From Diplonema japonicum (lineage: Eukaryota > Protista > Euglenozoa: Diplonemea), in the NCBI GenBank assembly GCA_964019335.1, contig OZ025692.1, forward strand, positions 434,001 through 498,000: DNA of 64,000 nt. Reading direction: 5' to 3'. Below, piece by piece: positions 19 to 64,000 of the stretch; the first letter of the stretch is position 1, and every line of letters begins with the position of its first letter. The notes under the pieces were generated by a model. The model was not told where the DNA came from. It saw only the letters and a program-made list of their open reading frames with translations, and did no database searches. The position numbers and the translations under genes were made by a program.

Positions 19-1680
19 TCACTGTTCCATAGATTCTTTCATCTTGAGAAGTGTCTCCTTTTTTTTTTTTTTTTTCCCATTCCAAATACATACCCCTCCC
101 TTAACGTCATAGTACGCATCAAAGTAAGTTGTGGACACATTAGCAACAACATTCCTATCAGGTATGCTCTGTGTAGTTCCGTAGATGGCGGCGGACCCTG
201 TGGCCTTAAGCTCCTTTGTCTTCATGAACTCGCCACAGGCCGCAGTAATATCGGCGATAAGCCTCTTCGAGTTCTCCATCTCGTTTACAGCATGAAGCTT
301 GGTGCAACATATGTGCAACGAGGAAGGGAACTGCAGCGCGTTCAACTCCCACCCCTTCGATGACAGGTCTCCCGCTAGCCTGTAAATATCGAATTCATCG
401 CTTGCAAAGGCGATGACGGTACCAACCGGGTCACCAACTAAACGCAAACCAGGGATCTTTTTGAGTTCCTCCTTGATGTACCGGGCAGTACCTATAATAT
501 CTTTGGCAGATTGTACGTAACCTTCCATCCCGTGCAACATCATGGCAGCCCATGTACCTGCAACCACGTTACCAGCCCTTGAACCGCTGATGACCGGCGA
601 TGCGTACAAACCACCAGGCCAGTTTGTAACGGAATGCATCTGATACCTCCTAATATCCGCGTGCCTGTATAATATAGTGCTGCTCCCCTTTGGGGCAAAA
701 CCGTATTTGTGAGTGTCACATGAGATTGACGTCACTCCGGGAAGTCTGAAATCGAATTTCTCACCCATGTCGTAGCCTGCTTTTTCTGCAAATGCGATGA
801 TGAACCCGCCAAGGCACGCATCGACGTGAACAGGAATCCCCTTCGCTGCACCTAGTGCTGCAATGTCTTCAATAGGATCGATGATCCCATGCGGGAAACC
901 GTACGCAGAGCCAACTAAACAGATGGTGTTCGATGTGATGAGGCTTTTCATGTGTTTAAGGTCCGCTTTGCCCGTCTTGGGGTCCATATCGGCGTGTTTC
1001 ATTGTTATGCCGAAATAGTGCGCGGCTTTCTCGAAGGCAGCGTGGGAAGTTACACATGCTACCATTTCGGGGTTTGTAATGTTTTTCTCGGCACGGGCGA
1101 GGTCTCTGTAGGCCTTCATGGCAAGGAGGATGGATTCTGTACCGCCGGATGTCATTGCACCGCAGCAGCCGTCTGTCCCGTTGAACATCTTGACCACCAT
1201 GGACAGGATTTCTGTTTCCATCTTTCGGACGCCGCTGAACTGTCCTGCGTGTAGCGGGTTTGTCCATTGGTGCATGGCCATGGCTTCGTTGATGAATTCT
1301 GTGTATCCATCCATGCCGCCGTGGTATACACACCCGCTGCACTGACCTTTTGAGTAGTCTAAGTTGATCTCCGCGTGTTTCTTGCACAATGCCAGAACGT
1401 CCTCCTTCTGAGCAGATTTTTCCGGGAGCTCTTCGTGTACCTCCTTCATGTCGGCCTGTTTCTCGGTGAATTCCTTGAGGAAGCTCATCTTAACACAGGC
1501 GGCCATCATCGCCAGCTGCGGGTCTGGAAGGGACGCTTTCGCCTTGTCCGGAGACGGGTTCTTTTGAGGTTCAGGAGCTGTCATTGGAACATCTGACTTT
1601 TGCAACTTTCGTAGTTCGGCCTTTCCGGATACCGGCCTCCTCCTGCTAGGTGGCGCCTCCTTGGAGTCTGCACAACCCAT
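19..1680 (-). CDS. SPL: Sphingosine-1-phosphate lyase (PLP-dependent, group II decarboxylase fold); exons 1680-94 and 57-19, ~541 aa
   Basis: Family motifs SGCVYHG, TNPLH, TSGGTESILLA, HVDACLGGF, CDTHKYG (PLP lysine) and SGSRAG. Probable start is MGCADSK (ATG at 1680) after an A-rich leader. The poly-K stretch near the C-terminus is explained by an in-frame intron. Confidence 0.92.
   Translation of the reverse strand: MGCADSKEAPPSRRRPVSGKAELRKLQKSDVPMTAPEPQKNPSPDKAKASLPDPQLAMMAACVKMSFLKEFTEKQADMKEVHEELPEKSAQKEDVLALCKKHAEINLDYSKGQCSGCVYHGGMDGYTEFINEAMAMHQWTNPLHAGQFSGVRKMETEILSMVVKMFNGTDGCCGAMTSGGTESILLAMKAYRDLARAEKNITNPEMVACVTSHAAFEKAAHYFGITMKHADMDPKTGKADLKHMKSLITSNTICLVGSAYGFPHGIIDPIEDIAALGAAKGIPVHVDACLGGFIIAFAEKAGYDMGEKFDFRLPGVTSISCDTHKYGFAPKGSSTILYRHADIRRYQMHSVTNWPGGLYASPVISGSRAGNVVAGTWAAMMLHGMEGYVQSAKDIIGTARYIKEELKKIPGLRLVGDPVGTVIAFASDEFDIYRLAGDLSSKGWELNALQFPSSLHICCTKLHAVNEMENSKRLIADITAACGEFMKTKELKATGSAAIYGTTQSIPDRNVVANVSTTYFDAYYDVKGGVCIWNGKKKKKKETLLKMKESMEQ
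58..93 (-). other. Predicted 36-nt GT-AG intron (phase 0) in SPL
   Basis: GTATGT donor, poly-A interior, AAG acceptor; removal deletes VCIWNGKKKKKK in frame. Confidence 0.7.
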
Positions 1681-1721
1681 GGTTTTTTTTTTTTTGGCTT
1701 TTTTCTTTTTTTTTTGAAAAA

Positions 1722-1860
1722 CTGTGGAGGGAATGGGGGGGGGGGGGGGGGGGGTGAAGGATGTCACAACATATTCAATAAAAAAAAGAAGAACACTTTT
1801 TTTTTTTTTTTTCCTTCTTCTTTCTTTCTTCCCCCTTCCCTTTAATGTGCTTTCTTTCTA
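1722..1860 (-). promoter_or_regulatory. Candidate trans-splice acceptor region upstream of SPL
   Basis: On the minus strand, a poly-C tract then CCCTCCACAG (AG at 1723-1722), then an A-rich leader to the ATG. Confidence 0.45.
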
Positions 1861-1895
1861 TAGAAATGAAAAAAAAAGAAAAGAAAAGAAAAGGT

Positions 1896-3896: not shown

Positions 3897-3952
3897 TTTT
3901 TTTTTTTTTTTTTTTTTTTTTTCCTCCCTCCAGGTCCACTCCCTGTGTGTGT

Positions 3953-3985
<33 letters not shown>

Positions 3986-5737
3986 CCCTTGGAAAAGTAG
4001 AGCAAAAAAAAAAAAAAAAAAAAAGGAGAACAAGATAAAAAAAAAAAAAAAAAAAAAAAATGGGGGTAGAGGATAAGAGGATTGTAACACAAAAAAAAAG
4101 TGAGAAAAGAAAGGACCAATGGGGAGAGAGGGGGGGAATTCAATTCAATTCAATTGCTAACTGTATACTCAAAGTGGTGAGGGGGAGGGGGAGGGGGAGG
4201 GGGGAGAGAAGGAGAAGCTGGATTCAAGTGGGAATTTGTTTTTTTTATGTTGTTACCGGTTTAGCTGTGATAGGTATGGGAAAATAAAAAATAAAAAGGT
4301 TTTTTTTTTCTTTTTTTTTTTTTTACATCTCTGTGAATTCAGTCCCAACAATTTCTTTTTTTTGCAGGGGGGTTCAGCGGAAAATCGAGTCGAACAAAGT
4401 AGCAGATTATTTTCTTTTTTTTTCCCTTCTCCTATTTCTTTTTTTCTTTCCACTTTTCTTTTTTTCCCCCCACTTACGAAAAATAAAAAATGTGGACGCG
4501 CAGGAGTATAGAGAGAGATGGGGACGGAGGGGAAAATCGCAAAAAAAAAAGATTTTTTTGAAAAAAGAAGAGAAAAAAAAACCCCCCCCGAAAGAAAAAA
4601 ATGCAGCTAAAATTAGAAGGAAAAAAATATGTAGGAAGAAAAAAAAGGCTAATGGGACAGCAACGAATAATGGGAAAAAAAAAGGCAAAATCTATTTCTG
4701 AATGAATAAAAACAGTTGGAGGGGGGGGGGGGGGGGGGGTAATGAGTTTTTTCTTTCTTCAAAGAGTTCTCGTTCAATTCCTTAGCCCCTTGCAATATAC
4801 TTAACACCCTGTGTTGCCCAGCTGTGGAGGGAAGGGGGAGAAACAGAAAAATATTCGATATGGGTGGGGGCTAGTTGTTAGCAACGATCCGTATAAATAA
4901 AAAAAAAAAATTCAAAAGGAAAATGGGGATAAGGGCGGCCCTGGGAGCCTGGAGTCACGCCTTCATTCCTTTTTTTTTTTTTTTTCTTTCTTTCACTTCC
5001 CGATCGTTTGCCAAGCTATGCTACTACTGCCAAAATTTTTCTTTTTTTTTTTTGTTTCTTCCTTTTTTTTATTTTTCTTTTCTTAGAAATCACTCCTTTG
5101 TCTTCCCCCCTTCAAAAAACCGGCAGTTTCTTGAAGGGGGGGAAAGGGAGTGCCACCCGCACATTGCCTTCCTTTTTTTTTTAAATCCACTTCTTTTTGT
5201 TTTGTTTTTCATTTTTTTTTTAGTAACTCTCTTAATTACTAGTTAAAATAATTCGGTTGCGAGAGCAAAGGTAAATAAAAAAAAAGGGAACTTACTGAAG
5301 TACAACGTACGCGATAGTCCCCTTTTTCGTTTGCGTGATATTTTTTTTCAAAAGCATAGATATCACACAAAATAATAAAATTAAAAAAAAAAAAAAGACG
5401 GAAAAAAAGAAAAAAAAGAAGAAAAATATCCGTATTGTGTGTGATCGGTCTATTTTATCACCCCTCCTTCAGAGGCAAAAAAAGAAGAAGAAAGGGAGGC
5501 ATAAGGAAGAAAAAAAACAAAACACAGTTTCACAACCATTTTTTTTTTTATACAAAATCGCCAATTTAAAAAAAAAATAACGCAGGCAGAGAAAGAAATG
5601 TGGAAGACCTGGGAAGGGAAAAAAAAAAAGGGAAGAGGCGGGGGGGGGAAAAAATGGTCCAGTTACTACAAAAGATTTCATGTTCTCAAAAAAAAAAAAA
5701 CAAGGGGGAGATGGGAACTAGTGGGAAAGAGTGAAAA

Positions 5738-5810: not shown

Positions 5811-6937
5811 TTAAACCCACCCAGATGTGCCTGGCGCAGCCTCTGTTTCAGTACCCGACACGTAGCCACCCCTCCCTCTGGTGGAAAGTGGAGACTCAAC
5901 ATAACTAGGGGAAACCGCAACACCCCGCCCCCTGCCCATAGAAGGGTAAACGGCGCTGGAGAAGGGATAAACCTCACCAGAAGGCGAAGCTTCAGGAGAC
6001 GGCTGCACGACACCTCCCCTACTTCTTGCAGAGGGGAACTGGTACTGGTTAAGACCTTCAGGTGATGCCTCCCTCGAGGGCGTCTGGAATGCCGTGTTTG
6101 TTCTTTCCTCTGGCTCCGTGTACAATGGAGGATCGTTCATGTGCGTCTCAGGCTCAGCCTCCTTAACCGGCGGCGAAGCCATTTCGACCTCAGGCTGCGC
6201 TTGTTCTTCGGGTTGCTGTTGGTACGGAACAGACTTGCCTCCGTCCTTGCCACCCTTGCACAGGCAGTACAACAGAAGAAGCAACAAAATAACCGCGAGA
6301 ACAATACCACCAATGATGACAATGCACACGCCGAGGGTCTGCCCAAAGCAAGCACTGTCATCATCATCAGGTGCAACAGGTGGGTTGTCCGATGCAGGGT
6401 TCACAGAAAGCACAGACGTTGGAACGAACCCGTTCATGGCGAGAGCGTTGTTGCCCTGAAGGTCGGCCTTTGCGTTGTCAAGGACACGCTTCTCAAGCTG
6501 TGCGTTGGTCTCGTTGGTCTTGGCCGAGACGGTGAAGGTGGCGTTTGTCCTGCCGGCATCCAATTCGGTGAAGGTCACGTTCTGGATAGAGCTTGTCGGC
6601 ACACCCATCGCCACAGACAGTGCCTCGATGAACTCGTCCTGCATGGCGCGCATGTCGGCTACAGGGTTGTTCAGCGCCATCGTCAAATTCGTGCTTGCCT
6701 CGTTACATGTGTCGCACGTCTGGATGCACGTTGAGACGACCTTGTTGTTCGCCTTCCCATGCTCGGGTGACGGGCACAGGCACACGAAGTTGTTCCCTGT
6801 GGCGGCACCGTCGGTGTCAAAGCAGACGTGTGTCTCGTTCCCGCACTTCACGGCGCTGTTTGCCACAGCACAGTCACCGACATGCACCTTGTCTTCGGTT
6901 ACAGCGTAACCCCTGCTCGGAAGGCCAGACAGCAGCT

Positions 6938-6971
<34 letters not shown>

Positions 6972-9900
6972 TAATACCAGCTCTCTGTAGTTCTCCCCCA
7001 GCTTCCCTGTGTTAGAGGCGCCGTTCGTGTTGACGATGTTGAAGACAACTCTCTGCCCACCGCGCCCGTCGGTCGTGATGTTCATGTTCTGCACCGACGC
7101 CCCGGTGTGCCCACCGGTCACCAGGATGTTCCGGAGCTGTGTCGTGAGGTCCGCTTCGTTCGGCGCTGTATCACCTGGAATGGTGAGCCCCATCTAGTAG
7201 TGTGGTGGTATAAATTGGTTTAAAAATAAGCAGCATACCCTGATGGTAGTGGGTCCCGTGGGAACAGTACAGTCCTCAGCGTAGGCCTTCCCAACAGCAA
7301 ACCTGGTGTTGTCCTGAGTGCAGGCGCACCTCCAGTTGTTAGTAATTGCTGTGTCGGGGTCTATACACTGCTGGCTCGCTGCCTCACAGACCTGCCTGTT
7401 CGCGGCAACTTCGCATTCGTTCACGAGGCTCTGGTAGCAGACGGTAGGGGCGTTCTGCTTGTTGGTGCCTGTGAGCGGAGGCGCGCAAGCACAAGCAAAC
7501 CCCTGTGTGGCGGTAGTGTCAGCCACACAGTACTGGCCGCTTGACGTGCACGTAGCGTAGTTATTCGTGCAAGCAGTGCTGCCGTAAGTGCACACTGCAG
7601 GAGCTGCAATCTGTGTGCCTTGTCCGTCCCCAACACACTCACAGGACCAGTCGCCCATCACATCCTGTCGAGGGTCCTTGCACACCTGCCCCTTCTTAGA
7701 GCACTCCGTCTGAAGTTGGCACTCGTCGATTAGGCATGTTGCACGCTGAGCAATGGCCTTCTGTCCCGTGGCAGGGGTGACACACACGCACTGCCAGTCG
7801 CCGGTAGTGCTCAGGTTCGGGTCATCGCAGGTCTGACCAGCGCTTGTACACGTCTGGAAGTTGTCCACGCACTCACCCTGCCAAGAACAGTCAGCAGTCC
7901 TACCGCGTGCCTGACCGACGGCAGGCGACACACAGTTGCACCTCCAGTCGCCTGTCGAGTTCGCGAACGGTGCGTCGTCGGTGCAGGTCTGGCCGACAGC
8001 CGAGCAGGTCTTCTGCCCAATGGTCCCAGCAGCACACTCGTCGACAACGCAGTTGGCAGGCTTCATGGTAGCCGACGTGCCCATGGGGTTGACGCACATG
8101 CACTGCCAGTCGTTTGCCTTCATCTCATCGGGGTCGACACAAGCCTGGCCCACACCATTGCACACGCTTGCATGAATGGCGCACTCTCCAGTGAACACAC
8201 AGTTGTTTGCAACGGCAGCTATGGCACTACCAGTGCTAGAGCCAGCGCATCGGCACATCCAGTCACCCTGTGAAATAAAGTATTTTGAGGAAAAAAAAGA
8301 ATGCATACCCTGATGTCGTCACTTGGGTTGGGGTCAACACATGTCTGTCCCACAGCGTGGCACACTCTACCGTTGTCCTCGCACTCATTCACGATACATG
8401 TTGCAGATCGCGCGCGTGCACTGCCCGTGCCCGTCGTGCACTCGCATTTCCAGTCATCCAGGGAAAGAGGGGATCTGTTAGGGTCCACACACTGCTGCTT
8501 GTTGCCGCACTTGTACCCGTTGGCGATGCACTCGTCGAGCGTGCAGTTCGCAGCCTCTCTCAGCGACCTACCCACAGCAGGCTCTAGACAGTTGCATTCC
8601 CAGTTGTTCAAAGAATTTGTGTTGGAGTCCAAGCAGTACTGCCCCTGAGAGGTGCAGATACGCGAGTTCTGTACGCACTCGCCAACAAAGTTGCATTCAG
8701 CAAGAGTGCCAGCGGCGGATCCTGATGAAACAGGCACACACTCGCACCTCCAGTCGCCAAGAGAGGTGGGGCTAGTGTTGGGATCCTTGCACCTCTGTCC
8801 AGCAGAGGAGCACAGCAACGCGGCGACACTGTTCCCCTTGCATTCGTCTTGAACGCAGAAAGCCGGGGAGACAGGTGACGGACTGCCCGACTGGGTTCCA
8901 ACACACTCACACTGCCAGTCGCCAGGTGCGTTCTCGTTAGGGTCAACACACGTCTGGCCGGCGGCTGTGCACGTCCTGAAGTTGTCTTTGCATTCACCCC
9001 TCCAAGCGCAGGTAGCTGCACCACGGTCCTTCGTGCCGGTGCCATCAACGCAGCGACACTCCCAGTCATTCAGCTTGTTTGCACTGACATCCTTGTCGTA
9101 GCACACTTGGCCGGCAGCGGTGCATACGGAACCAAAGGTGATACACTCATCTAATGTGCATGTAGCCGCAGAGCCCACCATCTTCCCTACCATCGGAGGC
9201 ACGCACGAGCACATCCAGTCTCCCACTCTTGTCTCGTCGGGGTCGATGCAAGTCTGGCCTTGATCGGTGCAGGTCCTGGAGTTGACGTTGCACTCGCCAG
9301 TGTAGGCGCATGCTGCCTGGCCAGCCACTTGCCTATTAGAAGCAGACTGTGCAGACCCCAGGCACGAGCACATCCAGTCACCAGTAGACACGGGGTCGAG
9401 GTTCGGATCGTGGCAGACTTGCCCAACACTAGTGCAGGTGATGTTGTTCTCACGGCATTCATCAAGTAAGCATTTTGCGGGTTTAGCAACAGCCACGCCA
9501 ACTGTGTTGTCGCCAGTGCATTTACACCTCCAGTCCCCGAGGCTCGTGTAGTCGGTGTTCGGGTCGTCGCACTCCTGACCCTGTGCAGTGCAGATCTGCC
9601 TGTTTGAAGTACACTCATCGAGCTGGCACTTAGCCACACCACCCACTTGGTTCCCTTCCGCAGGTGCAGCACATCTACAAGACCACCCAGAACCATCGCT
9701 TACGCACGCCTGCCCTGCTGCCGCACAAACGTTTGCGAACTGGTTGCACAAGCTACCTGTTGCGAATACACACGTAGCCGGTGCCATGAGCTTGCTGCCA
9801 CTTCCACTACCATCACACTTGCACACCCAGTCATTGTTGGTTCTGAGGCTGTTGTCTTCGCACGCTTGTCCCTTGTTGGTGCAGATGTCACTCTTCACAG

Positions 9901-25353: not shown

Positions 25354-25382
25354 CTGCGGGTGGTGTTGTCAGGGCAACGCGA

Positions 25383-25760: not shown

Positions 25761-28700
25761 CTAAAAATCTAGAGAGCCCAACCACTCAGCAGTATTCCCG
25801 AGTAGCTCCTCTGCCAAGTCATCGATGATTTCTGTTACCAGCTCGGCTTCGTAGGGGTTCGTCTCCCAGGCAGGTTCCCAAAGACCGTGTTCAAGGAATG
25901 GGAGGTCAGGGGCTGAGGCGTGGGTCACTCGGTGCCACTCCGTACACCACTTGTCGATGAACCGTTGGAAGCTGGCCCTGTCAGCTGCCCTTACGGGCTT
26001 ACCGAATTTGCTGACATAGCAATCTCTACCTTCCTTGGCCACATTGACCAACAGTGTGTGGTACGTCCTCTGCCCTTTGTTCGAATGAGCCGTGTTCAGC
26101 ATTTTATCCATTTTCTCATCCAACTCCTGCTCCTTCATTCCTGGATTGCCAGCAAGCACTTTGCACACACTTTTCAAGGCAGCCTGGGTAATTTCCTGTC
26201 CCCGCTGAGCTTTCTTACCACCTCTCCCTCTTGCTCTTGAGACCGGTGTTGTTTGTGAAGCTGCCTTCACAGTACTCCTGTATTTTTTGTTTAGTAGACC
26301 TTTATTCCTTTCTCCATACGTGTCGTTATTGCCTATCACATGGCCAACGACTTCGTCCATCATGTCCTCTATCAAGATATCTGTGCAGTGGTCTATTGTT
26401 CTCAGCTCCTGTGATATGGTGCATTTGTGTTGTTGTTGTGGTAGTACCATCAGTTCGCCTGCGTACATCTCGTAGGTCTGTGCCACCTCGACCATGGACT
26501 GCTTTATCAAGGCACCCCTTGCCTCCATCTCATTTGTAATAAGGGCCATCACAGTGCAGATCATCCTTGTCGCACTGTCGCTTGCCTCCACCACCGCGCC
26601 CCATTCCTCTGTCTCAGCGTCCTTCACCTCAACGCGTTCACAGTCTTCCTCTGCGCAGCATTGTCCCACCGCCACCTGTATGTGTTGCCAATGTGCTTAT
26701 CAACGCTTACCTGTAAATCTGCGTTTCGTGTTTCTTCGAGTTTTTCTGCCAGCTCTTGTTCTCGTTCTGCTTCTCCGTGTAATGACTGTCTCATGGACAC
26801 CTCTGCGAGTACTTCCCCCACCATGTCGTCTGCCAAGCTGGTCATTAGCGACGCCGCGCACAAGTCCGCTTTTTGTTGTATCTGTCGCAGTTTGTAAGGT
26901 CTTGGTTCCCTGCATACCTCGATGTTGTTCCCTTGTGCCGCTTCTTCTTGCGCAAGAGCTTCACGTGCTGTCGCTTCGTCCGTTTGGAAGCCCATCACGT
27001 CACGGACCACTGCTGCTGCACGGTGGCTTTCCTGCATTGCTTCCTCCCAACTAGCGTCTTCCGCAGTTGTAATCTGCCGTCTTTCTTCAGCTTCTGCAGC
27101 AAGTCTATTGTCTTGTGCTTCCCTGTCGCGGACAGCTTGCTCTGCAGCCCATCGTTCTTTTTCCGCATCCAGGAGTTCTTCTTCTCTCAATCTCTGTGCC
27201 TCCAGCTCTGTTTCCTTTTCTTCGTCTATTTCTCCCGCTTGAACAGGTGAGGGCACCCTGGTGACAGCCTCAGTTTTGGTGACAAGCGCCACCACCTCTT
27301 CGACTACATCGTCCAGCAACGTTGTGAAGAGCGCCTCTGTCTGGCTTGTGGCTTCCTGTGTTGTGTGACAGGTGTGATTCGGAACTACCTGGTTCAGGTG
27401 GGTGGCCTCGGCAAACAAGCTCTCTGCAGCTGCAAGGTTTGCATTCTCTTCGCTGGCGATGTCCGCCCTTGTAGAGGTCTCCTGCGTTGGTTGTTGTGAG
27501 AAGACACACATACCTGCTCTTGCACAACGTTTCGTTCCCGTTGTTGGGTGTCTTTCAGGAGTTCTCGTTGTTCTTCAAGATCTTGTTTTCTCTGTTCAGC
27601 AAGCTCCCTTTCCTTTTGCTCTGCCAAGTCCTTTTCCCGTCGTTCCACTGCTTCTCGTTCTCTTGCGGCTTTGGCTTCTCTTTCGCTCTCTTCTCTTTCC
27701 GCCAGCTCCCTTTCCCTTTGCTCTGCCAAGTCCTTTTCCCGTCGTTCCGCTGCTTCTCGTTCTCTTGTGGCTTTGGCTTCCCTTTCGCTCTCTTCTCTTT
27801 CCGCCAGCTCCCTTTTTTGTTGTTCGGCAGCTTCCCGTTCCCGTTGCTCTGCGGCCTGCCGGTCCCTTTCCCTTTGCCGGTCAGCTTCTATTTCAGAGGC
27901 TTCTTTTCGCCGCCTTGCTTCGGCCTGAGAGGCTGCAGCTTCTCGGGCTGCGACAACCGCGTCCTCAAGTTCCTTCTGTTCGGCTCGCAGCTTTGAAAGT
28001 GCTTCGCTTTGCCCCTCTTGCTCCTCCGCAAGTGCCCTTTTTGCGATCTCTGCTTCTTGAAGTGCAGCACGCTCTCGCTTCACGTTCTCCCTAAGCTCCT
28101 GCAGCAGGTGTTCTTCTGACTCGCGCTCTGCTGCCATAGTCGTTTTTTGCTCCTCTTCCGCTGCTCTTTGCGTTTCGAAAGCCTCGCGCTCTTGTTCAAG
28201 CACCGTTCTGCTTGTTTCCAAAGTCTCTCTCATCTGCCTAAGCGCTTCTTCTTCTGTTCCCCTTTTGTGCACCTCTTCTTTCTTTCGTGCATCAAACTCC
28301 TCTTTCTCACGCTGCAGTGCTTCTTTTTCAGCCTCTACTGCCTCCCTCTCACGCTGCAGTGCTTCTTTTTCAGCCTCCACTGCCTCCCTCTCACACTGCA
28401 GAGCCAGGTTTTGTGATTCTTCACCCAGGCGCTTGGCCGCTTCTATGTCCTCCACAAAAGCCTGTCTATCACGCCCGAGAGCCTCCCCTTGTGCTTCCAC
28501 GGCCTCCCGTTCCCGGTCAAGCGCGAGCCTATCTTCAATCAAAGCCTCGTTGCACTTGCTTGCCAACTCCCGTTGTGTTTCCAGTTCCTCCTTTTCTGCT
28601 TGAAAAGCGCTTCTGCTTTCCTCTAGCGTAGCCCGCATCTGCCCCAGCGCCTCCCGTTCCACAGCTAAGCCTTCTGTCTCTTCTCTCTGCTGTGCTTCAA

Positions 28701-32895: not shown

Positions 32896-33242
32896 TCACA
32901 TCAAGACACACTGCCCTTCCCGTTCGAGATTGCCAATGCAGTAGGTGTCCCAGGCACTCTTTTGTTTATGGAGGAGGAAGTCTTCAGTTACATCAGTGCC
33001 TGCCCGTCGGAGGAGGGTCTCCCTGCCACCAGGATGCGTCTCAAAGTTTGTGATATTATAAACCTTGCCCCCGGCAGTAACCCATGCATCAGAAGAAGTG
33101 TTATGCCGTGCCACTTCTTCCATTGTGTATACGCTACCCTCACTTTTTTTCGATCCCAGCACCTTAGCAAGCTCGTAAAGACACAGATCATGCTGTTTCG
33201 TAGGTTGCCTGCCACACCTGCGCATTCGAGAATGGCCTGGGG

Positions 33243-33294
<52 letters not shown>

Positions 33295-33323
33295 TACATA
33301 CCGCTGCTTGCACATGCAGGCAT
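32896..33323 (-). CDS. Cytochrome b5-domain protein with C-terminal CaaX box (~120 aa); exons 33323-33302 and 33236-32896
   Basis: YTMEEVARHN..DAWV...KVYNIT..HPGG...AGTDVTEDF..H is a b5 heme-binding domain with both His ligands; ends CVLM; a phase-1 intron supplies the start MPACASSG. Confidence 0.85.
33237..33301 (-). other. Predicted 65-nt poly-A intron (phase 1)
   Basis: G|GTATGTAC-(A)~48-CCTCCCCAG|GC joins the ATG at 33323 in frame with the b5 domain. Confidence 0.75.
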
Positions 33324-45882: not shown

Positions 45883-45979
45883 TCTTTTTTTTTTTTTTTC
45901 TTTTTTTTTCCTCCGTTTCTTCCTCTCTGTAATGCTTACAAAAAAAGGAGGCTTGCTGTGGGGTCATATTATTATCACA

Positions 45980-48346: not shown

Positions 48347-48347
48347 A

Positions 48348-48854: not shown

Positions 48855-50013
48855 GTTTATTTTATTTTTCTCCATTATTTCTCCCTTTTTTTTTGTTTTT
48901 GGCGTTGTCATTGAGGGGTGGGGGGGGTTTTTTTTTTCGTTCTGGCTGCGCGCACATCGATACAAAAAGAAATAGAAAGAAAAAAAGGGGAGGGGGGGGA
49001 CGAGGGGAGTGAAAGCACCTAAAAACACAATAAAATTCTTACTAACAAATCTTCGCACGTAGAAAAGAAGAAGAGGCAGGGTACTCCACTACTCCCCTTT
49101 TTTTGTTGCTGATCCGGACTGGGGGAGGAATTGAATTACTGGCCCCCTACGTAAGAAAGAGTAGGGCATGTGAGAACCATATTAAGGGACATGCATGACA
49201 TTGTGGATAAATAATAAGAGAAGAGAAGAGAAGAGAAGGAGAATGGAAGGAAGAAGAAGGAGAGGGGGGGGAAAGAACGATAGTCTAGTATCTAGTGTGT
49301 CTTTCTATTTTCTCTTTCTCCCCCCCCCTTTTTTTTTCTTTTTTAAGTTACACCCTGCATCGTAAGGCTTAATTTTTACAATGGATTTGAAAGTATCGCA
49401 TTCTTGTTCAAAGGGAGGTGACAAGGGGAAATATATAGTGAAGGGGAGAGGGGGGGAAAAAAATATTTAAAAATGCTGATACAAGTGAGTTAATTCAAAA
49501 GAAGAAGAAATTTATGTAGCTTCGAACCAACGAAGGTTCGCCGGCCACCAGGATCAGACAGGGAAAAATCAAACTAATGTGACCGAGGTCTTAGGACCCC
49601 GCTCCTCCCTTTTAGCCCAACGAGACAAACACACAAGGCTAGCTTCACAGTTTATTTTTGTTTTTGTTTTTGTTTTTTTTATACAGAAGAAAAGAAAAAA
49701 GAATTCCCCCACTACTTTATTTCTTTCTTTTTTTTCTTCCTCACCCCCATATAGTCACCACCCAAGCAAAGCACGCAAACGTGGTTTGCGTCTTTTTCTT
49801 TTTTTTTTTTTTCTCTCTCATTTTTGCTTCCCCTTTTTATTCTACAAATAGGTAGGAAGGGGGGGGAGTCAGAACGAAAAATCAAATCAAAACCTTTTTT
49901 TTTCTTAACTAAAACTACAATAAGAAAGGGGGCTGAAAAAGGGGGGAAACAGTGAAATGAAGAGGGGGGGGGGGGGGGGGGAATCACACAAAAGATGATT
50001 GCCGCACGCCGTA

Positions 50014-53307: not shown

Positions 53308-54984
53308 CTAAGCTGTACTATCCACGAAGCCCTTGCTGGCAGACAAGTCATGTGAGTGGAGGTCACTCCACGCACTGCAGTCTTGTATCGTAACCACAGA
53401 AGGCACTGTTCCGGCAAACACGAAGCGCAGACGACAGTGCGAGAGAGGTACAGGACAGGGCATTGATGCAATCAGGTTCTCTGCCGCACCCACCTGATGA
53501 CGACCTGTGTTGTTTGCGTTGTGAAACCTCCATCATACCGGGGGTGGCTCCACCGTGGTCTTCCCCTTCCCTTTCATCTTCGCATGTCCCTTCAGCACCA
53601 ATGGCTCTGATGACGACTCGGGGATTTGGTAAAGTGGTTCTTCTTCAGGTTCGGGCTCTGGCTCCGGCTCCGGCTCTGGCTCTGGTTTTGGCAGTGCTGG
53701 TAGAGGCTCCTCAGACTGCTCGGGATCCTTCTGGAAGTCCAGGTGCACCCATGCAGGGGGCCTTTCATCGAGCGTCTCGTCCACATGCATGTGCTGCTCG
53801 TGCGTGTAGCGGATGAGGTAGTTGATGGCGTCGATGATGCCTGCGATGCCTTCGTACGCCTCGCTGCTGACAGGCGGTTTGGGAGGCGTGCGCATCACCA
53901 CTGGCGGCGGCGGTGGCGACGGCTCCTGCCTCCTCCTCACCTTCCGCACAGGCTTCCCCCCAAGTACGATTTTCTCCCTCCGCGTCTGCTCCTCTTCCTT
54001 TGGTTCTGTCCGGAGAACAAGCGGCTGGAAGTCGTCCTCCATAGGCCAGCCTGTGATGGGCTCGTCACGTGTGAAGAGAGCGTCTTTGTCCACCTTCTCC
54101 CTTTCTTTCTCTCTCCTGCTGCTCTTCACTTGGTGCTCCTGAAGAATAGGGGCCGCGTACGGGGTCGCAGCGGTGCCGTTGGTGCGAAGACGGTGCCCGG
54201 CACCGGAGTTCCAAGGGGCGGGGTTGGCAGCTGGGGCCACTGGCTGTGGCTTGGCGACGATTCGGCGGCGGGAGGAGCTGAGAGAGCGTGTCGCGGCAGG
54301 GGGTTGTGTGTGGTGTTGCGAGGGGGCACTACTGCTGCGGCGGTAGGCAGTTGAGGGTTGAGTCACAGTAGCTGCAAAGTGCGGGCGGTGCTCATCCCGT
54401 GATGGCTCTGCCTGTGCCTGTGGCTGTGGCTGTGGCTGTGCCTGTGGCTGTGGCTGTGGCTGTGGCTGTGGCTGTGGCTGTGGCTGTGCCTGTGCCTGTG
54501 GCTGTGGCTGTGGCTGTGCCTGTGGCTGTGGCTGTGGCTGTGGCTGTGGCTGTGGCTGTGGCTGTGCCTGTGGCTGTGGCTGCAGTCGAGGCTGGGACTC
54601 CACCGCCGCCGCTTTCGTGAAGGCGGCTTGATCTGGAAGCTCAACTTCTCGCTCTACCAACTCAATTCTCTCTCTTCTCTGCTCGGGGGACGCGTTCCTG
54701 AGGGACATGGGGTACCGCCTCTGCAGCGCAAGGGACAGATCCCTTCTTTTAGTGACACGCTTCACAGGACCGTACCCATTGCGCTCGTCTTCCTCGACAG
54801 TGAGCGACAGGGAGCGGAAGCCGCTACCCGTCTGCGCCATTTGATCATCACTGGGGGGGACCTCTTGCTTGGCCCACTTCATAGCCCACTCTCCCGTCCC
54901 CACCTTTCTCGGTTTATTCGAGGTGTACCCCATTGCCGCCAGTGCCTTCATGCTCCCTTGCGCATCTTGCTCGGTGTCCCCCAT
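53308..54984 (-). CDS. Hypothetical disordered protein with PQ and PE dipeptide repeats; main exon 54984-53539 plus a probable 3' exon (53493-53308, or a short alternative from 53504)
   Basis: Long ORF from MGDTEQ ends at CCG|GTATGA (donor 53538). Two candidate acceptors: ACACAG at 53505 and CATCAG at 53494. Confidence 0.65.
54411..54582. repeat. (TGGCTG/TGCCTG)n hexamer microsatellite encoding (QP/QA)n
   Basis: About 28 direct hexamer units inside the ORF. Confidence 0.95.
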
Positions 54985-55562
54985 GAATGCACTGGAGGGA
55001 AGGGTTGTTTGCACAAAACAACAAATGTAATAAAACAATAAAACAAAAAGAAAAAACTCTCATCACAAGGTGTGAGGGGATAGAGAATTGAACAGTAAAG
55101 AAGAAGAATGTGAGGGGAGGGGTTATGGGGAAAAGGGAGAAGGGGAGGTTTTTTTTTAAAAAGGGATTCCTTGTTAATGGGGTGGGTGGATAGAGAAGTG
55201 GGAAGGGGTCGAAAATAAGAAAAGGGGGGGGATAAAATAAAAGCACACTGTAAAAAATACCCTTCCCTCCCTTCCCTTCCCCCCCTCCCACCCGCCCCTT
55301 TGTTATGTAAATACCGGTTATTACTGTACTATGTGTAAAAACAAACAAAAAAAGATCTTTAAAATTTAATTCGCCCCCACTTCCCATATCCATGAAAATA
55401 ACCTCTAAGGGGAACAAACCCCCCTGCTTATTTTGCCTCTTTTTTTTCTTCTTCGTCGTTTTTCTTTACCACACTTTGGTCTCTATTTGAAATAAAATTT
55501 AAAAAAAAAAAAAAGGAAATCTATGGAAGAAGAAAAAAATAGCTCGCCCCCTCCCCCATCGC

Positions 55563-56805
55563 CTAACGGTAAAATTCAAAATCGTCCGTCTTTCTCTTCA
55601 CGTGGCGCTGGTAGGCCTTTTCGAAGTCCCGTGCGAGAATAACGTATCTGTTCTTGCGCACAGCTTGCATGCCTGCTTCCTGGCAAATGGCGTGGATCAT
55701 CGCACCCGCCAGCTTGTCAGGGCGTGTAACGAAGTCTTCAAGGTCCACCTCGTCAGCAAGAGACATCTTACCAGTGCACACCTTTTTTTTTTTTTTTTTT
55801 TTTTTTTCTTTTCTTGATATAAAGTAATACCTGGAAAATCAGTCGCTTTGACCTTCTGTCTGGGAGAGGGAACTCAATCTTTCTGTCCAGCCTTCCGGGT
55901 CTCATGAGGGCGGGGTCGAGGGTGTCCCACCTGTTGGTTGCCATGATGACCTTGACGTTCTCCGTCTGGTCGAACCCGTCCATCTGGTTGAGCAGCTCCA
56001 GCAAGATACGCTGCACCTCACGGTCGGCACCGGTCTGCGCGTCGAAACGTTTTGTAGCAATGGAATCGACCTCATCGATGAAGACAATGGACGGTGCGTT
56101 CTCCTTCGCCAGACGGAACACGTCCCTCACCATACGCGGGCCCTCCCCTAAGTACTTCTGGACGAACTCTGACCCGACAACACGGACAAACGCAGCATTG
56201 GTGTGATGAGCAACTGCCTTAGCAAGCATGGTCTTACCGGTACCGGGTGGGCCGTACATGAGCACGCCCCTTGGGGGGTCGATACCAATCTGGCGGTACA
56301 GCTCACCGTGGGTTAGAGGGAGTTCAACAGCCTCTCGCATCTCTTGCTTCTGGATGTCGAGCCCACCTATGTCAGCGTATGTCACGTCTGGCTTGTCGCC
56401 AGCAGCGAGCAATGAGATGGACGCGTCTGACTCAGATGGGAGGATGGCAACACATGCGTTGCTCTGTTTGTGAAGCCCAATACTGCTGTTTGGCTTTAAC
56501 TGTTCTCTGTCCAATGTGGAGAGAACCCTGACATAGTAGTTGGGGCCGTTTGTGCTGCCCACGATGCCCCTTTGCTGGTCGATCATCTCGACGAACTGCC
56601 CCACGACAAGGGGGACGGACTGTATCTTCTTCACCTCTTGCTTGGCTGCGAGCTCTTCTTTCATCAGTTGCTTCGTCTCTATCTTGCAGATCAACGTCTT
56701 TAAATCGATTGTGGCTTGATTTTTAACTAACTTCATGTAATCAGTATAACACCCTTCCCTCGACACCATCGGTATCCTGTCCTTGTCCCCCTCGTCGCCT
56801 GACAT
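55563..56805 (-). CDS. RPT3: 26S proteasome AAA-ATPase subunit RPT3 (PSMC4), ~397 aa; exons 56805-55831 and 55781-55563
   Basis: [19 protein letters not shown] (Walker A), IVFIDEVD (Walker B), [16 protein letters not shown]-terminal HbYX motif (EFYR). Confidence 0.95.
55782..55830 (-). other. Predicted 49-nt A-rich intron in RPT3
   Basis: CAG|GTATTAC...(A)n AG|GTG restores the conserved [13 protein letters not shown] continuity. Confidence 0.9.
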
Positions 56806-58136
56806 CTTTGTCCCGAACCCTGTCGTTGTGTTGTGATGAGGGGAACGGGTGAAGGGGGAAACAAAACAAAAGGTTGTGAAACGCAAGTTTTTTTTTTGGG
56901 GGGGAAGGGGTCCATTTTCTTTCCCCCTTCCTCACCTTTTGTTCAGAATTTTGATTAAGTTTTTAATTGACGGTTTCTCTCTCTCTCTCTCTCTTCTCCC
57001 CTTATTAGTTGTCTGTTTCCTTTCCCCTCCCATCCTTTAAAAAGAAAAGAAAAAATTCAAGGGGGGACGCTTTCAACGAAAGTTGTAAGGAAGCATTTTT
57101 TTATTATTATTTTTCCACCACAGTGAAGTACGATTTAGAGGTGTGTAGTGTTTTCTTAGGTTACCACCACTTCGGTAGGAGGCAAACATCGTTGATGGGA
57201 TGCTAAAGCGCTAATACGCAACTCTGCTTACATTACTTCTTTTTTTTTTATTTTATTTTTTTTCTCGTTCAGTGTCCTCTCCCCCCCCCCCCTTTTTATA
57301 CGTACACAGTTTCCCTCATCCCCCTTTTTGTTCCTTCCTTTTTCCCCCCCTGCTTTTTTTCGTGGGGAAAAAAAAGTCCTCAGGAAAAAAAAAGGGGGGG
57401 GAGGAGGGTGAATGGAAAAAAAAACTGAAACGTGTCCCCCCATTGTCTCCCTCGATATTTCTGTTTCTCTTTTGCCCAACATATCACTGCATTAAGATTG
57501 CATTTGAAAAAAGGGGGGAAAAAAAGGGGGGGGGAGGAGAAAAAAAATGGAGGAGGGGAATAAAGCCCCGTGGCAACACCACCTTTCCTCAACTGCTTAA
57601 GTTCAGCGTCGGTAAAAGCGACTGGTCTGAAGCTTTACTTAGCATGGACTGATATTCTTTTTTTTTTTTTTTTTTTTTTTGATTTCTTTTTTTTTTTTTT
57701 TTGATTTCTAGGGGGAAGGGGGGGAAATGATCTTCAGACCAAACCTCCGTTGGGAAGAGGCTTTCTCCTAAAAACAAAAAGAAAAAGGAACAAAAAAAAA
57801 AAATAAACATAAGTTTACAAAAAAAAGAAGAAAAAAAAATGTCAAAAACACAGGGTGAGAAGGAAGACAGTGTGACTTGGCGCCAAGCGTGAAAAGCGGC
57901 CACACACTTACACACCACAGCTTGTCGAACTGCAAACACCACCAGCTGCATAGTCCGACTAGAAGGCAACGGCACGACTCTTGAATCCGCCGACAAAGGG
58001 AAGGAAAGAAGGAACGACAGGGAACAATCAAAAACACCATAATGAGCTCACAACGAGGGACGACAAGATGACACAAGACAGGTTGGCACCACGAGCACGG
58101 TGCACGGGCGGTAAGTCGGCACTGCACTGCTCAGCA

Positions 58137-58231
58137 TTATATGCTCTCAGCGTATGCACAAAGGGTACGGAAGACCGGCAAGCAAATAGCACTCCCTGCG
58201 CTCATCCGTATCGCACAAGGTACAAAACCCT

Positions 58232-58265
<34 letters not shown>

Positions 58266-59112
58266 CCTTCTTTTCTTTTCTTTTCTTTTCTTTTCTTTTC
58301 TTTTCTTTTCTTTTCTTTTCTTTTCTTTTCTTTTCTTTTCTTTTCTTTTCTTTTCTTTTCTCCCATACTTTCCACAATGCGAGGAACCCTTCATCCCGCG
58401 CCACCCTAGTGATGGTCCCCGACACCGAGCTGTAGACGAGAGGCTGGTTCTGCATCCTTGTTTTGGTCATGAAGAAGGGCATCTTGGGAATGGAGGCCAA
58501 GAATCCCATGAGAGAGCCTGACATCACATCCTGCGCGAGCTTCTCAGAAGACGAGGTAGCAGGTGGGAGGTAGTCCTTCTGCATCTTGTGGACGCCGAAG
58601 AAGAAGGTGGAGTTGAAAATGCAGTTCCTGATACACATGGCACGGTAGCCGGAGTACAGTGCGAGGGGGCCTTCCTCCCTCAGAACTGTGGCGAAGCAAT
58701 GAAAGGTGTTCCGGTAGCGGTGCATGTGCATCGCAGACATGAGACGCACTTTGCAAACTTCAAAGGGACACACGAGAGTCGTCTCTGCTATACCGCTGCA
58801 CAGCCCGCTGATAAAAACACCTCTTTCTGATAGGTGGCCACGTTCGTCTTGCAGTGCTTTGCTCACTTGTCTCTCACCCACGTACATTCCTATCGTAGCT
58901 GGTACTGCTGCCAAGACCTGTGGGCCCAGCCCCCTGTACATCGACAACACCCCCCCTTGCCTCCAGATCCCCATGAACTCCTTCAACATGCTCGTTCTCT
59001 CTGTGCCCTCCCTGAGCATGCATCGTGTGGCTACAATGTCTATCGGTTGGCATGAGCAGTACTCGGCCACCCCTGCACACGCCCCTGCCGCGATCTCCTT
59101 AGCCAGATCCAT
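58137..59112 (-). CDS. Mitochondrial carrier (SLC25), oxodicarboxylate-carrier-like, ~278 aa; exons 59112-58369 and 58229-58137
   Basis: Three Solcar repeats (QPIDIVATR, CPFEVCKVR, MPFFMTKTR; G..SMYRG, G..ALYSG, G..ALWK|G). RNCIFN resembles ODC contact point II. Confidence 0.9.
58230..58368 (-). other. Predicted 139-nt all-purine intron containing (AAAAG)~18 and poly-A
   Basis: AAA|GTATGG...AAACAG|GGT restores the carrier motif LWKG; the microsatellite spans 58271-58360. Confidence 0.9.
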
Positions 59113-61220: not shown

Positions 61221-62089
61221 TCATGCCAAGTCACCTTCTTGCACCGCTTCCCACAAGCTCTCCCATTTCATGTACTCGACATGCCCGTCCTCTGTCGGCT
61301 GCCCTCTACCGTTGGGCGATGCTGCTTGAGTGGCCACCGCTGCCTGTTTTGTGTTTGGTTGATGTGTGTGTTAAGCATACTATCTCTGTGATCTCCTCCA
61401 CAGAGAGGGCGTCACCGCATAGTTCCTTCAACACTTCTTCGAACTGATGCCTTGTGACGCACCCTGTCCTGTGGTGTGGTGTGGTTTTAAAAAAGATTTC
61501 TTTTTTTTCTTGCATACTTTTTCTTATCGTATTTTCTGAATGCGCCCTGCACCTCGTCGCCTGCGGACTCTTGCGACCCGAAGTTTGACATCATGAGCAG
61601 CAGGAACTCCTCGAACTCAATCTCGCCGCTCCCGTCGTCGTCCACCTCTCTTATCATCGCCTCGATCTCCTCCTTGCTCAGGTCCTGCCCGAAGGATGAG
61701 AACACGTTCCCTAGCTCCTGCATGTCAATGGAGCCTGACCCGTCCGTGTCGAAGGTGTTGAAGCACTCCTGCAGTGCTTGGATCTGGTCGTTCGACAGGG
61801 GGCGCATCCCTTGCGATTTGATCTTTGCCTTTAACATTGAGAACTGGTCCTTCCCGTCCACTTCCACACTCCTCAGCCAGTCCACAAATTCTGCCAGATC
61901 CAGCTCCATATCCTCTGTGTTCCCTGCCGCCACAATGCTCTCCCTCAGCGCCTCGTCCGACATCTCAATGTTCATCTTCCTCGCAAGCATCTTGAACTCC
62001 ATGAAGTCGATCTTACCACTGTTATCCGTGTCGAACTGGCGGAACATCACCTCGATCCCCTTCATCTGATCATTTGTGAAGTTCTCCAT
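61221..62089 (-). CDS. Calmodulin-like protein with six EF-hand-type motifs, ~260 aa; exons 62089-61518, 61468-61381, 61343-61221
   Basis: Canonical loops DTDNSGKIDFME, DTDGSGSIDMQE and DDDGSGEIEFEE; degenerate loops NTEDMELDLAE, DKKKTGCVTRHQ and EDGHVEY; two introns restore the frame. Confidence 0.88.
61344..61380 (-). other. Predicted 37-nt AC-rich intron
   Basis: ATA|GTATGC...CAAAACAG|GCA, phase 0. Confidence 0.8.
61469..61517 (-). other. Predicted 49-nt intron
   Basis: AA|GTATGC...CACCACAG|G, phase 2, rebuilds the EF loop YDKKKTG. Confidence 0.85.
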
Positions 62090-62224
62090 TCTTTTTTTTT
62101 TTTGTTTCCTGTATTATACTTTTTTTTTTCCTCTCCCTTCTCTATTCTTGATATAGAAAAACATGGGCATGGGTGGTGCCGCTTTTTTTTTTTTTTTTTT
62201 TTTTTCTTTTTCTTTTTGCTTGCT

Positions 62225-62263
<39 letters not shown>

Positions 62264-62387
62264 ACGAAACAACATAACTATCGAGTAACTACTTTCGCCA
62301 AGAAGTCTTCTTGGGAATGGCCAAGGCGTAGGTGGCAGCATGTCTAATAATCTATCAGCACGCACTGCTATGAGTTGCTATGGGTTG

Positions 62388-64000
62388 CTATGGGTCGCTC
62401 TCTTCGCCGCTGTACTGCAAATCATCATCTTCATGTTCACGCTTCTTGGGCTCTCTGATTGTCCCTGTCGGCTGGCTCTCCTCCACGCTGTCACTATGCG
62501 ACATGCCCCCCTCACAGCAGGGTTCCGTCTGCATCCCTGTGCTGACTGTGCTGACAGTGCTGATACGATGCATCAAGGGCACCTTGTGGCAGTGCAGCGG
62601 CGAGAGAGGCATTGCTGATGAAGGCGATGGTGTAGTGCCAGCAAGCTGTCTCATAAAAGCACGTCTCCCAGAAGGAGACATGGGTGGGGAAAAGCTTTCC
62701 GAAGTGTCACTCGGAGACATGTTGGAATCGAAGACAAAGGAGTCTGTCTGTGGTATGGACAGGGCGTCAAGAAGGTCGTCCTCCCGTGTCCTGGGTCCTG
62801 AGGAGGTACCAGGCTTTCGCGAAAAGCGGTGCTTATCCGGAGCGGGGGGCAGCTCGAAGACCTTCATCGGCATTCTGTGAACATTTCTTGCTTCCCGTGG
62901 GAAAGCAGGCCTTGCCCTAGGGCTGGCCCACCGCAGGTTCATCTCAGGAGACGATGGCGCAGTGGACAAGGGGCTTGGCGCCACATGCAAGTTGAGCGGC
63001 GACGAAAAACCCATGACACCTGCCACCAAAGGGGCGTCGAAGGGCGGCTGCGCTGGGGCTTTGGCTGGTGTCCATTTAGAAGATGTTGTTATCAACGAGG
63101 AGGCGGCGGATCCTTCAAGACCTGTGTGTGTGTTCTAGTGTGTGGTGACGTTACCTTGTCTCCCGTCACACCTCAGTGTTTCAACCTGGCACCGCGCATC
63201 GATCAGCTCGTTTTCGAGCTCCTGCTTCTCGTCCACAACTTCGTTCAACGTGTACTTCAAATTCCCCACCTCCTCCTGCAGCCGTATGATAGTGCTCTCC
63301 AGTGGTTCGCTCTGCTCGTCAGTTCCTTCATCGGATTCCTTCCATGCAGCAATGACTTCCTTTATATTGCTTGTGCTTGGGGGCCCCTTCGCTCCTGTTG
63401 AGGTGACCACCAAGCCCTCTTGCCTCTCGGCTTCCTCTTCCCACTTTGTTACAAGGTGTTCTGCCCTCTGCGAGTGCTTTGTGCCATGTAACATCTCTTG
63501 AATTAGTTGCAGTTTCAGGTTAGCATTTGTGCCCCAGAGCGCAACTATCGTGTCGCCTAGCGCCACCGCCGATTCTTTGCTTCGCGCCATCTGCTCGCGC
63601 AGAACTTTGATGTCCGCTTCCAGCACTGCGATGTGCCCCTTGCTGATCTCCGCCAGCATCTCCTGGGGGTCATGTCCCATGCTCCGCTCGAGTTCCTCGG
63701 ACACGGCGTCGCTCCTGTCGGTCGGGTAGTTCACCGACTCTTTTTCTTCTTTGTCTTCGTTGCTGTCCAGCTGCCGCCTCAGTTCGTCCACCTGCTCCTT
63801 TAGCGTCTCTATCGTGGCCCTGTCGTCAAGGTTCTGCTCCTGCGAAACGGTGAGCATCTTCTCGAGGTCGGCGCTCTTGTCGTGAAGGACTTTGACTTCT
63901 ATGCTGCGCTCTTCCTGGTCTTCTGTCTGCACGGCCATCTGCTTCAGTGCCTCCGACGGCCTTTTCAAAAGGAATGAAGAACTTGTCGTGAGCTTCGCTT
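62388..64000 (-). CDS. 3' part of a coiled-coil protein with a disordered S/P-rich tail (5' end beyond the window); exons >64000-63155 and 63121-62388
   Basis: Frame is open to the window edge; heptad-rich; a 33-nt intron (63122-63154, G|GTAACG...ACACACAG|GT) joins the two ORFs in frame. Confidence 0.75.

What the first reader, a model, noticed from the sequence alone, without database searches (positions are those of the whole stretch)
58..63154. Mini-introns with A/AC-rich interiors and no polypyrimidine tract: a possible cis-versus-trans splicing code
Seen: 13 GT-AG introns reconstructed by frame or motif restoration, of 36, 42, 45, 41, 35, 32, 65, 45 (or 34), 49, 139, 37, 49 and 33 nt. 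Donors are mostly GTATG(T/C). 3' ends are usually poly-A or ACAC-rich right up to AG; 6936-6977 is GTATTAC-A32-CAG and 58230-58368 is nearly all purine. In contrast, the AGs upstream of start codons (1722, 25354, 54992, 56820) follow long poly-T/C tracts. Established: U2AF65 normally reads a pyrimidine tract at 3' splice sites, and euglenozoan SL trans-splicing depends on such tracts. Inference: this genome may reserve pyrimidine tracts for trans-splicing and define cis introns by short length, a strong donor and an A-rich interior, preventing SL addition inside genes.
Basis: partly seen in the sequence, partly recalled or inferred. Interest (0 to 1): 0.8.

Follow-up and report, generated by a model that had tools for sequence, protein, structure and literature searches.

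The report
A-rich mini-introns in a diplonemid
This marine flagellate (genus Diplonema) has tiny introns whose ends are rich in A and C instead of the usual pyrimidines, a trait already published for Diplonema japonicum, and the one place where the leader cap was seen joined to an mRNA (in a close relative's RNA) is just as A-rich here, so pyrimidine tracts likely only favour leader addition rather than acting as a strict code.

Summary
The 13 introns are in the sequence as described, all on the minus strand (32-139 nt, median 41). Seven have support beyond frame repair: three are spliced out in RNA-derived contigs of a ~98% identical relative, three restore homologous proteins, one restores an internal repeat unit. 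The '45 or 34' intron is 34 nt. The organism is a Diplonema close to D. ambulator (RPT3 386/397 identical). Short, GTATG-led introns with A in place of the pyrimidine tract, with U2AF present, are already published for D. japonicum (PMC12621601). The new claim, a cis-versus-trans code, fails as a rule: the only spliced-leader site I could observe (AG 62110-62109) follows a purine-rich stretch (15% pyrimidine over 40 nt; longest pyrimidine run 7 in the 281-nt spacer), and one intron (8268-8308) holds a 15-nt pyrimidine run. It survives as a tendency: pyrimidine-rich CAGs lie near 9 of 16 start codons (3.6 expected, P~0.003), but those sites are unverified. Best reading: one tract-independent acceptor signal serves both reactions; a donor 30-65 nt upstream wins cis-splicing; pyrimidine tracts only boost many trans sites.

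The parts
58..93 (-). 36-nt in-frame intron near the 3' end of a sphingosine-1-phosphate lyase gene (ATG 1680)
   Evidence: Spliced tail YYDVKGG-ETLLKM matches transcript-derived homologues P0126/P0127 (YYDVKGA-DTLRKM); four genome-derived homologues run into Val-Cys at about the same place, as an unspliced GTATGT/C would give
6936..6977 (-). 42-nt in-frame intron GTATTAC-A32-CAG in a 6452-aa cysteine-rich membrane protein gene
   Evidence: Motif only: no stop, would otherwise add a poly-Lys run; no homologue found to test it
7194..7238 (-). 45-nt intron, TAG acceptor, same gene
   Evidence: Removes an in-frame stop and opens the reading frame; not seen in RNA
8268..8308 (-). 41-nt intron with a 15-nt pyrimidine run, same gene; counterexample to 'no tract'
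   Evidence: Restores frame and the gene's own repeat unit C.DPN...GDW.C.C; composition
26676..26710 (-). 35-nt intron (GTAAGC donor) in a 1478-aa coiled-coil gene
   Evidence: Frame restoration only
27482..27513 (-). 32-nt intron, same gene
   Evidence: Frame restoration only
33237..33301 (-). 65-nt candidate intron after a 7-codon first exon of a small cytochrome-b5-like ORF; could instead be the 3' end of an outron
   Evidence: Frame joining only; a later ATG gives most of the same ORF; weakest of the 13
53505..53538 (-). 34-nt intron (not the 45-nt alternative)
   Evidence: Run X1 contig joins 53502 to 53537 with no letters between, a 34-nt skip
55782..55830 (-). 49-nt intron in the proteasome RPT3 gene
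   Evidence: Spliced product 397 aa, 386/397 identical with no gap to EukProt Diplonema ambulator RPT3
58230..58368 (-). 139-nt all-purine intron expanded by a (AAAAG)n repeat, in a mitochondrial-carrier gene
   Evidence: Spliced form aligns better than unspliced to 9 of 9 homologues tested; repeat
61344..61380 (-). 37-nt intron in an EF-hand (calmodulin/centrin-like) gene
   Evidence: Skipped in an X2 contig, CT..AC ends; retained in one X1 contig of depth 2.5
61469..61517 (-). 49-nt intron, same gene
   Evidence: Skipped in contigs of both X1 and X2, two studies
63122..63154 (-). 33-nt intron (GTAACG donor) in a gene that starts beyond the window
   Evidence: Frame restoration only; no RNA contig spanned it
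62109..62111 (-). Spliced-leader acceptor CAG, 19 nt upstream of the EF-hand gene's ATG (62089), preceded by a purine-rich stretch with no pyrimidine tract
   Evidence: X2 contig ends here with 13 loose letters whose reverse complement plus the shared G equals the last 14 letters of a published euglenozoan leader; composition; no GTATG/GTAAG-type donor in the spacer
1722..1724 (-).
   Evidence: 88% pyrimidine over 40 nt; not observed in RNA
25354..25356 (-).
   Evidence: 72% pyrimidine over 40 nt; not observed in RNA
54992..54994 (-).
   Evidence: 70% pyrimidine over 40 nt; not observed in RNA
56820..56822 (-).
   Evidence: 70% pyrimidine over 40 nt; not observed in RNA
3943..3990 (-). Two competing candidate acceptors of the LMF gene: AAG at 3988 after a pyrimidine tract and CAG at 3943 after A33-(CA)n; the best single test site
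   Evidence: 95% versus 10% pyrimidine over 40 nt; neither observed in RNA

Best explanation
These are ordinary GT-AG mini-introns of a Diplonema genome, and both intron removal and leader addition likely use one acceptor signal (mostly CAG, often after an A/C-rich stretch) that does not need a pyrimidine tract. Shown: the introns, their A/C-rich 3' ends, splicing of three of them in a close relative's RNA, and one leader joined at a purine-rich site. Inferred: the U2-type spliceosome defines each intron across its short length, so a GTATG donor 30-65 nt upstream of the AG commits it to cis-splicing before the leader snRNP can act; an AG with no such donor upstream takes the leader by default; pyrimidine tracts further upstream strengthen many, but not all, leader sites. 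How the A/C-rich end is read (relaxed U2AF65, U2AF35 on the AG alone, or a substitute such as SPF45) is untested.
For: Three introns skipped in RNA-derived contigs with CT..AC ends; three more fixed by homologues. A/C signal at -13..-4 in 11 of 13 introns versus 18 of 898 coding CAGs. Leader at 62109 with 15% pyrimidine over 40 nt, longest run 7 in 281 nt, and no GTATG/GTAAG-type donor in the spacer. 12 of 16 candidate leader acceptors have no GTA(TG/TT/AG/AC) within 150 nt upstream. D. japonicum: 10,131 introns, median 41 nt, GTATG donors, A the commonest base in the tract region, U2AF1/2 present (PMC12621601). In Euglena gracilis cis introns and outrons share one 3' signal (PMC11170887). In Schistosoma, longer introns and longer tracts shift acceptors toward leader addition, a graded effect (PMC5832876).
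Against: Only one leader site was observed, in one contig of depth 8.3, from a strain or sibling species about 98% identical; its own outron is not visible and might hold a tract. Candidate leader acceptors are on average more pyrimidine-rich than introns (0.59 versus 0.34 in -23..-4, 14 genes with a CAG of 16, P=0.012; with the nearest-YAG rule 0.52, P=0.07) and pyrimidine-rich CAGs are enriched near start codons. The A/C signal is weaker at candidate leader sites (0.71 versus 0.91, P=0.004) and the observed site itself has only 6 of 10 A/C at -13..-4, so the two classes are not identical. 15 GTATG words sit in coding sequence that reads through without a splice, so the donor word alone does not define an intron. 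Six introns rest on frame or motif only.
Confidence: 0.6

Rival explanations
1. Strict cis-versus-trans code: pyrimidine tracts are reserved for and required by leader addition, and A-rich interiors stop the leader entering genes.
For: Only 1 of 13 introns has a pyrimidine run of 10 or more, against 8 of 14 nearest-CAG candidates (Fisher P=0.013); 9 of 16 genes have a CAG with at least 70% pyrimidine within about 150 nt of the ATG, 3.6 expected (P~0.003); trypanosome leader sites usually have a tract and purines inserted in it are harmful (PMC9639853).
Confidence: 0.1
2. Graded two-signal code: A/C-rich ends are actively selected in introns to lower leader mis-addition, most leader sites carry tracts, and 62109 belongs to a minority class helped by exonic enhancers.
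For: Class differences; 5' UTRs are A-rich (0.53 versus 0.29), which could act as enhancers; the Schistosoma precedent of tract length deciding cis versus trans.
Against: Nothing here shows that A-richness lowers leader addition; the A-rich observed site argues that it does not. It cannot be told from the best explanation without many mapped sites.
Confidence: 0.22
3. Neutral filler: the A-richness is transcribed-strand mutational bias and homopolymer slippage in any transcribed non-coding DNA that stays unstructured, not a recognised signal.
For: 5' UTRs are also A-rich; intergenic DNA has 71 A-runs and 54 T-runs of 10 or more; the 139-nt intron is a simple repeat expansion.
Against: Intergenic sense DNA is balanced (29% A, 32% T) while introns are 64% A, 13% T; U and G are shut out of the last 10 nt before the acceptor far more than chance; CA-rich motifs recur in the introns of other diplonemids.
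Confidence: 0.08

Closest known systems
Canonical introns of Diplonema japonicum (Thakur et al. 2025, PMC12621601; parts 1-4 of 8 and keyword passages read, figures and supplements not available)
   Same: GT-AG, median 41 nt (here 41), (G)/GTATG donor, CAG acceptor, A as the main base where the tract should be, poly(A) tracts, rare YTRAY branch motif (13.9% there; 3 of 13 here)
   Different: That paper does not examine leader acceptors ('spliced leader' and 'outron' 0 occurrences). The window's species was not determined; its closest named RPT3 is D. ambulator.
Euglena gracilis conventional introns and outrons (PMC11170887; passages read)
   Same: Euglenozoan with both cis- and leader trans-splicing, an atypical tract, and a 3' signal shared by the two reactions
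   Different: There the shared tract is C-rich pyrimidine and introns average about 500 nt; here it is A/C-rich and introns are about 40 nt.
Cis/trans competition in Schistosoma mansoni (PMC5832876; passages read)
   Same: Graded bias in which longer tracts and longer introns favour leader addition; the classical view that a donor-less acceptor takes the leader
   Different: Schistosome cis introns keep pyrimidine tracts, and 43% of leader sites there are intron acceptors; internal leader addition was not seen or tested here.
Trypanosoma brucei leader acceptors (PMC9639853; passages read)
   Same: Same leader 3' end, unidirectional gene cluster, no branch-point consensus
   Different: Trypanosome sites usually need a U-rich tract; the observed site here has none.
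SPF45/RBM17-dependent human short introns (bioRxiv 10.1101/784868; abstract and outline read)
   Same: Very short introns spliced without a full tract
   Different: A subset in humans with a truncated tract, not an A-tract; no evidence here that SPF45 is involved.

Membership tests
U2-type (major) spliceosomal intron | GT...AG ends | tested here: met
   13 of 13; RNA joints read CT..AC on the plus strand
U2-type (major) spliceosomal intron | Removed from the mRNA | tested here: met
   3 of 13 seen skipped in contigs of a close relative; 3 more by homologues; the others not seen in RNA
U2-type (major) spliceosomal intron | Polypyrimidine tract before the AG (typical, not obligatory) | tested here: not met
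   1 of 13 has a run of 10 or more; mean pyrimidine 0.34 in -23..-4
U2-type (major) spliceosomal intron | Branch point and lariat | not testable with these tools
   YTRAY-type words in 3 of 13, related words in 2 more; no lariat data
U2-type (major) spliceosomal intron | U1/U2/U2AF genes in the genome | not testable with these tools
   No genome held; no Rfam match in the window; reported present in six other diplonemids
D. japonicum-type A-tract mini-intron | Median about 41 nt, GTATG donor, A-dominated 3' region | tested here: met
   Median 41, GTATG 9 of 13, A 0.62 in -23..-4
Euglenozoan non-canonical (structured) intron | Non GT-AG ends with paired termini | tested here: not met
   All GT-AG; terminal pairing not computed
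Euglenozoan spliced-leader trans-splicing | Leader 3' end joined at an AG upstream of the ATG | tested here: met
   14 of 14 letters at 62109; one site, one contig, related strain
Kinetoplastid-type tract-dependent leader acceptor | Pyrimidine tract upstream of the leader AG | tested here: not met
   Not met at the 1 observed site; met at 8 of 14 unverified nearest-CAG candidates

The most novel reading that the evidence does not exclude
Diplonema has rewired 3' splice-site recognition for both reactions: its spliceosome reads an A/C-rich or purine-rich acceptor with no pyrimidine tract even for leader addition, unlike its trypanosome sisters, and keeps leaders out of genes by intron brevity and by holding introns toward the 3' end of genes, making it a natural system for learning how one spliceosome chooses cis or trans without the U2AF65-tract contact.
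Probability: 0.3. Interest if true: 0.6.

Novelty: new member of a known kind. Interest (0 to 1): 0.3.

Why it matters
The introns themselves add little: the same type is described from ten thousand D. japonicum introns. What remains of value is the trans side, which my searches did not find treated for diplonemids (Additional file 1 of PMC10161547, on intron splicing and UTRs, and the supplements of PMC12621601 could not be read and may cover it). A leader joined at a tract-less, purine-rich acceptor suggests that the tract dependence known from trypanosomes is not general in Euglenozoa, and public RNA data would allow the cis-versus-trans comparison genome-wide at little cost.

Tried and rejected
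No whole genome is held, so no genome-wide count. No run was on record as RNA; X1 and X2 were guesses that proved to hold spliced contigs, while X3, X5, X6 and X7 kept the introns they spanned and behave as DNA. No homologue of the large cysteine-rich protein's C-terminal part among longer proteins (weak evidence), so 6936-6977 and 7194-7238 remain unverified. The metagenome scan with the EF-hand protein gave 6 distant loci, none usable as diplonemid orthologues. Rfam: nothing. Earlier findings: none on introns. The 45-nt form of 53494-53538 was rejected in favour of 34 nt on one X1 contig; both could occur. The leader site as a hidden 5' UTR intron was rejected: the loose letters are the leader's own end and no donor-like word lies in the spacer. 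A motif scan for further mini-introns gave 24 minus-strand hits (9 known) and 14 plus-strand hits, so motif alone is not diagnostic.
Full report
Organism and setting. All 16 genes I annotated lie on the minus strand in one unidirectional cluster with homopolymer-rich spacers. The proteasome subunit RPT3 (ATG 56805) has diplonemid best hits; spliced at 55782-55830 it is 397 aa, 386 of 397 identical and gap-free against EukProt Diplonema ambulator, 362 against Lacrimia lanifica, 358 against Rhynchopus humris and 356 against D. papillatum. The window is therefore a Diplonema near D. ambulator; the species was not determined. No whole genome is held.

The introns are there. Donors are GTATG in 9 of 13; acceptors CAG 10, AAG 2, TAG 1. 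Independent support, 7 of 13: (a) contigs of two runs from different studies, about 98% identical to the window in the aligned pieces (15 other letters in 960 for X2), skip 53505-53538 (X1, which picks the 34-nt form), 61344-61380 (X2) and 61469-61517 (X1 and X2), the last two listed with CT..AC ends; one low-depth X1 contig retains 61344-61380. (b) Homologues fix 55782-55830, 58230-58368 (9 of 9 homologues tested, of 150 listed, align better spliced) and 58-93 (the two closest of 14 tested match the spliced tail; the other 12 are uninformative or mixed, 4 of them genome-derived models that appear to read into an intron at about the same place). (c) 8268-8308 restores the gene's own repeat unit. 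The other six rest on frame (7194, 26676, 27482, 63122, 33237) or motif (6936); 33237-33301 is the weakest.

Composition. Interiors are 64% A and 13% T against 29% A and 32% T in 20.7 kb of sense-strand intergenic DNA. At -13..-4, 11 of 13 introns have at least 9 A or C, against 18 of 898 coding CAGs. The signal is real, but not absolute: 8268-8308 has a 15-nt pyrimidine run, and 4 of 13 are 55-65% pyrimidine (mostly C) at -23..-4.

This part is known. Thakur et al. 2025 (PMC12621601; parts 1-4 of 8 read, keyword passages; no figures or supplements) report for D. japonicum 10,131 introns, median 41 nt, GTATG donors, A as the most abundant base in the tract region, 'atypical poly(A) tracts', U2AF1/2 present, and CA-rich motifs in several other diplonemids. 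They do not treat leader acceptors.

The cis-versus-trans claim. I applied fixed rules to all 16 genes. Nearest CAG (14 of 16 genes have one within 200 nt): pyrimidine 0.59 versus 0.34 for introns, P=0.012; nearest YAG (15 of 16): 0.52, P=0.07; nearest CAG versus 167 intergenic CAGs: P=0.18. A CAG with at least 70% pyrimidine lies within about 150 nt of the ATG in 9 of 16 genes, 3.6 expected from random intergenic anchors (P~0.003); with any AG, 13 versus 9.7 (P=0.07); the -140..-61 zone is 63% pyrimidine versus 53% (P~0.01), and the last 40 nt before the ATG are 53% A versus 29%. So there is a tendency, measured on guessed sites and not corrected for several tests.

The direct test goes against a strict code. 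In one search the X2 contig that carries both spliced junctions of the EF-hand gene ends at 62109 with 13 loose letters; reverse-complemented and with the shared G they equal the last 14 letters of the leader sequence printed in PMC12153298 (a trypanosomatid leader; passage read). The leader is thus joined at CAG 62111-62109, 19 nt before the ATG. In the window, the 40 nt upstream are 60% A, 25% G, 15% pyrimidine; the longest pyrimidine run in the 281-nt spacer is 7; no GTATG/GTAAG-type donor lies there. An A-rich acceptor therefore takes the leader. Limits: one site, one contig of depth 8.3, and a relative whose own outron is not seen.

Mechanism. Shown: short GT-AG introns with A/C-rich ends, splicing, leader addition at a tract-less AG. 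From established knowledge: U2-type spliceosomes do both reactions, and the classical view is that an acceptor without an upstream donor takes the leader, with tract and intron length shifting the balance (PMC5832876, passages); in Euglena cis and trans acceptors share one signal (PMC11170887, passages); trypanosome sites usually need a tract (PMC9639853, passages); essentially all D. papillatum mRNAs carry a leader (PMC10161547, passages). Inferred: intron definition across 30-65 nt lets a GTATG donor claim the AG for cis-splicing; 12 of 16 candidate leader acceptors have no donor-like word within 150 nt; pyrimidine tracts are optional boosters. The donor word is not sufficient by itself, since 15 GTATG words lie in uninterrupted coding sequence, so the A/C-rich end probably helps define introns. 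Which protein reads it is untested; SPF45 is a precedent in human short introns (bioRxiv 10.1101/784868, abstract). I put 0.6 on this, 0.22 on a graded code in which A-richness actively repels the leader, 0.1 on the strict code and 0.08 on neutral filler.

Novelty. The intron type is published for a congener. A comparison of cis and leader acceptors in diplonemids did not turn up in searches or in the Thakur text, but the library lacks most subscription papers and two supplements that may cover it could not be read. Interest 0.3.

Noticed in passing
window, 8 intron-bearing genes with a known start: Introns sit toward the 3' end: 11 of 12 lie in the last 40% of the coding span (binomial P~3e-4; first intron per gene 7 of 8, P~0.009); the large gene has none in its first 17 kb. 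Short 5' exons would be easier to miss, though RPT3 and the carrier start where their homologues do.
   Followed up: partly
window 58-93: Four genome-derived diplonemid S1P-lyase models end in Val-Cys-... at about the same place, suggesting a conserved intron position and gene models that read into it.
   Followed up: partly
window 45884-45939 (-): Possible 14th intron (56 nt, GTAAGC...A-rich...AAG) in the 5' UTR just before the ATG of an RRM gene at 45882; untested.
   Followed up: no
window 5814-25297 (-): A 6452-aa predicted membrane protein with at least 36 cysteine-rich DP...DW.C.C units and a block of beta-rich repeats; no Pfam match in the three C-terminal exon pieces tested.
   Followed up: partly
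40 nt upstream of 16 start codons: 5' UTRs are strongly A-rich (0.53 versus 0.29 background); the relative X2 carries a 13-nt purine insertion in the EF-hand gene's UTR.
   Followed up: partly
window 47100-49050 and 42100-42700: High-copy repeat (depth over 100 times the background in two DNA runs) and a long inverted repeat around 42100-42540 visible in the sequence; possibly non-autonomous transposons.
   Followed up: no
window 50017-52653 (-): Polycystin/PKD-type cation channel gene, no intron needed for its 878-aa frame.
   Followed up: no
window 54403-54582: (TGGCTG)30 tandem repeat inside an ORF, encoding a Gln-Pro/Ala-Gln run on the minus strand.
   Followed up: no
window 41134-41333: 200-N scaffold gap.
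   Followed up: no
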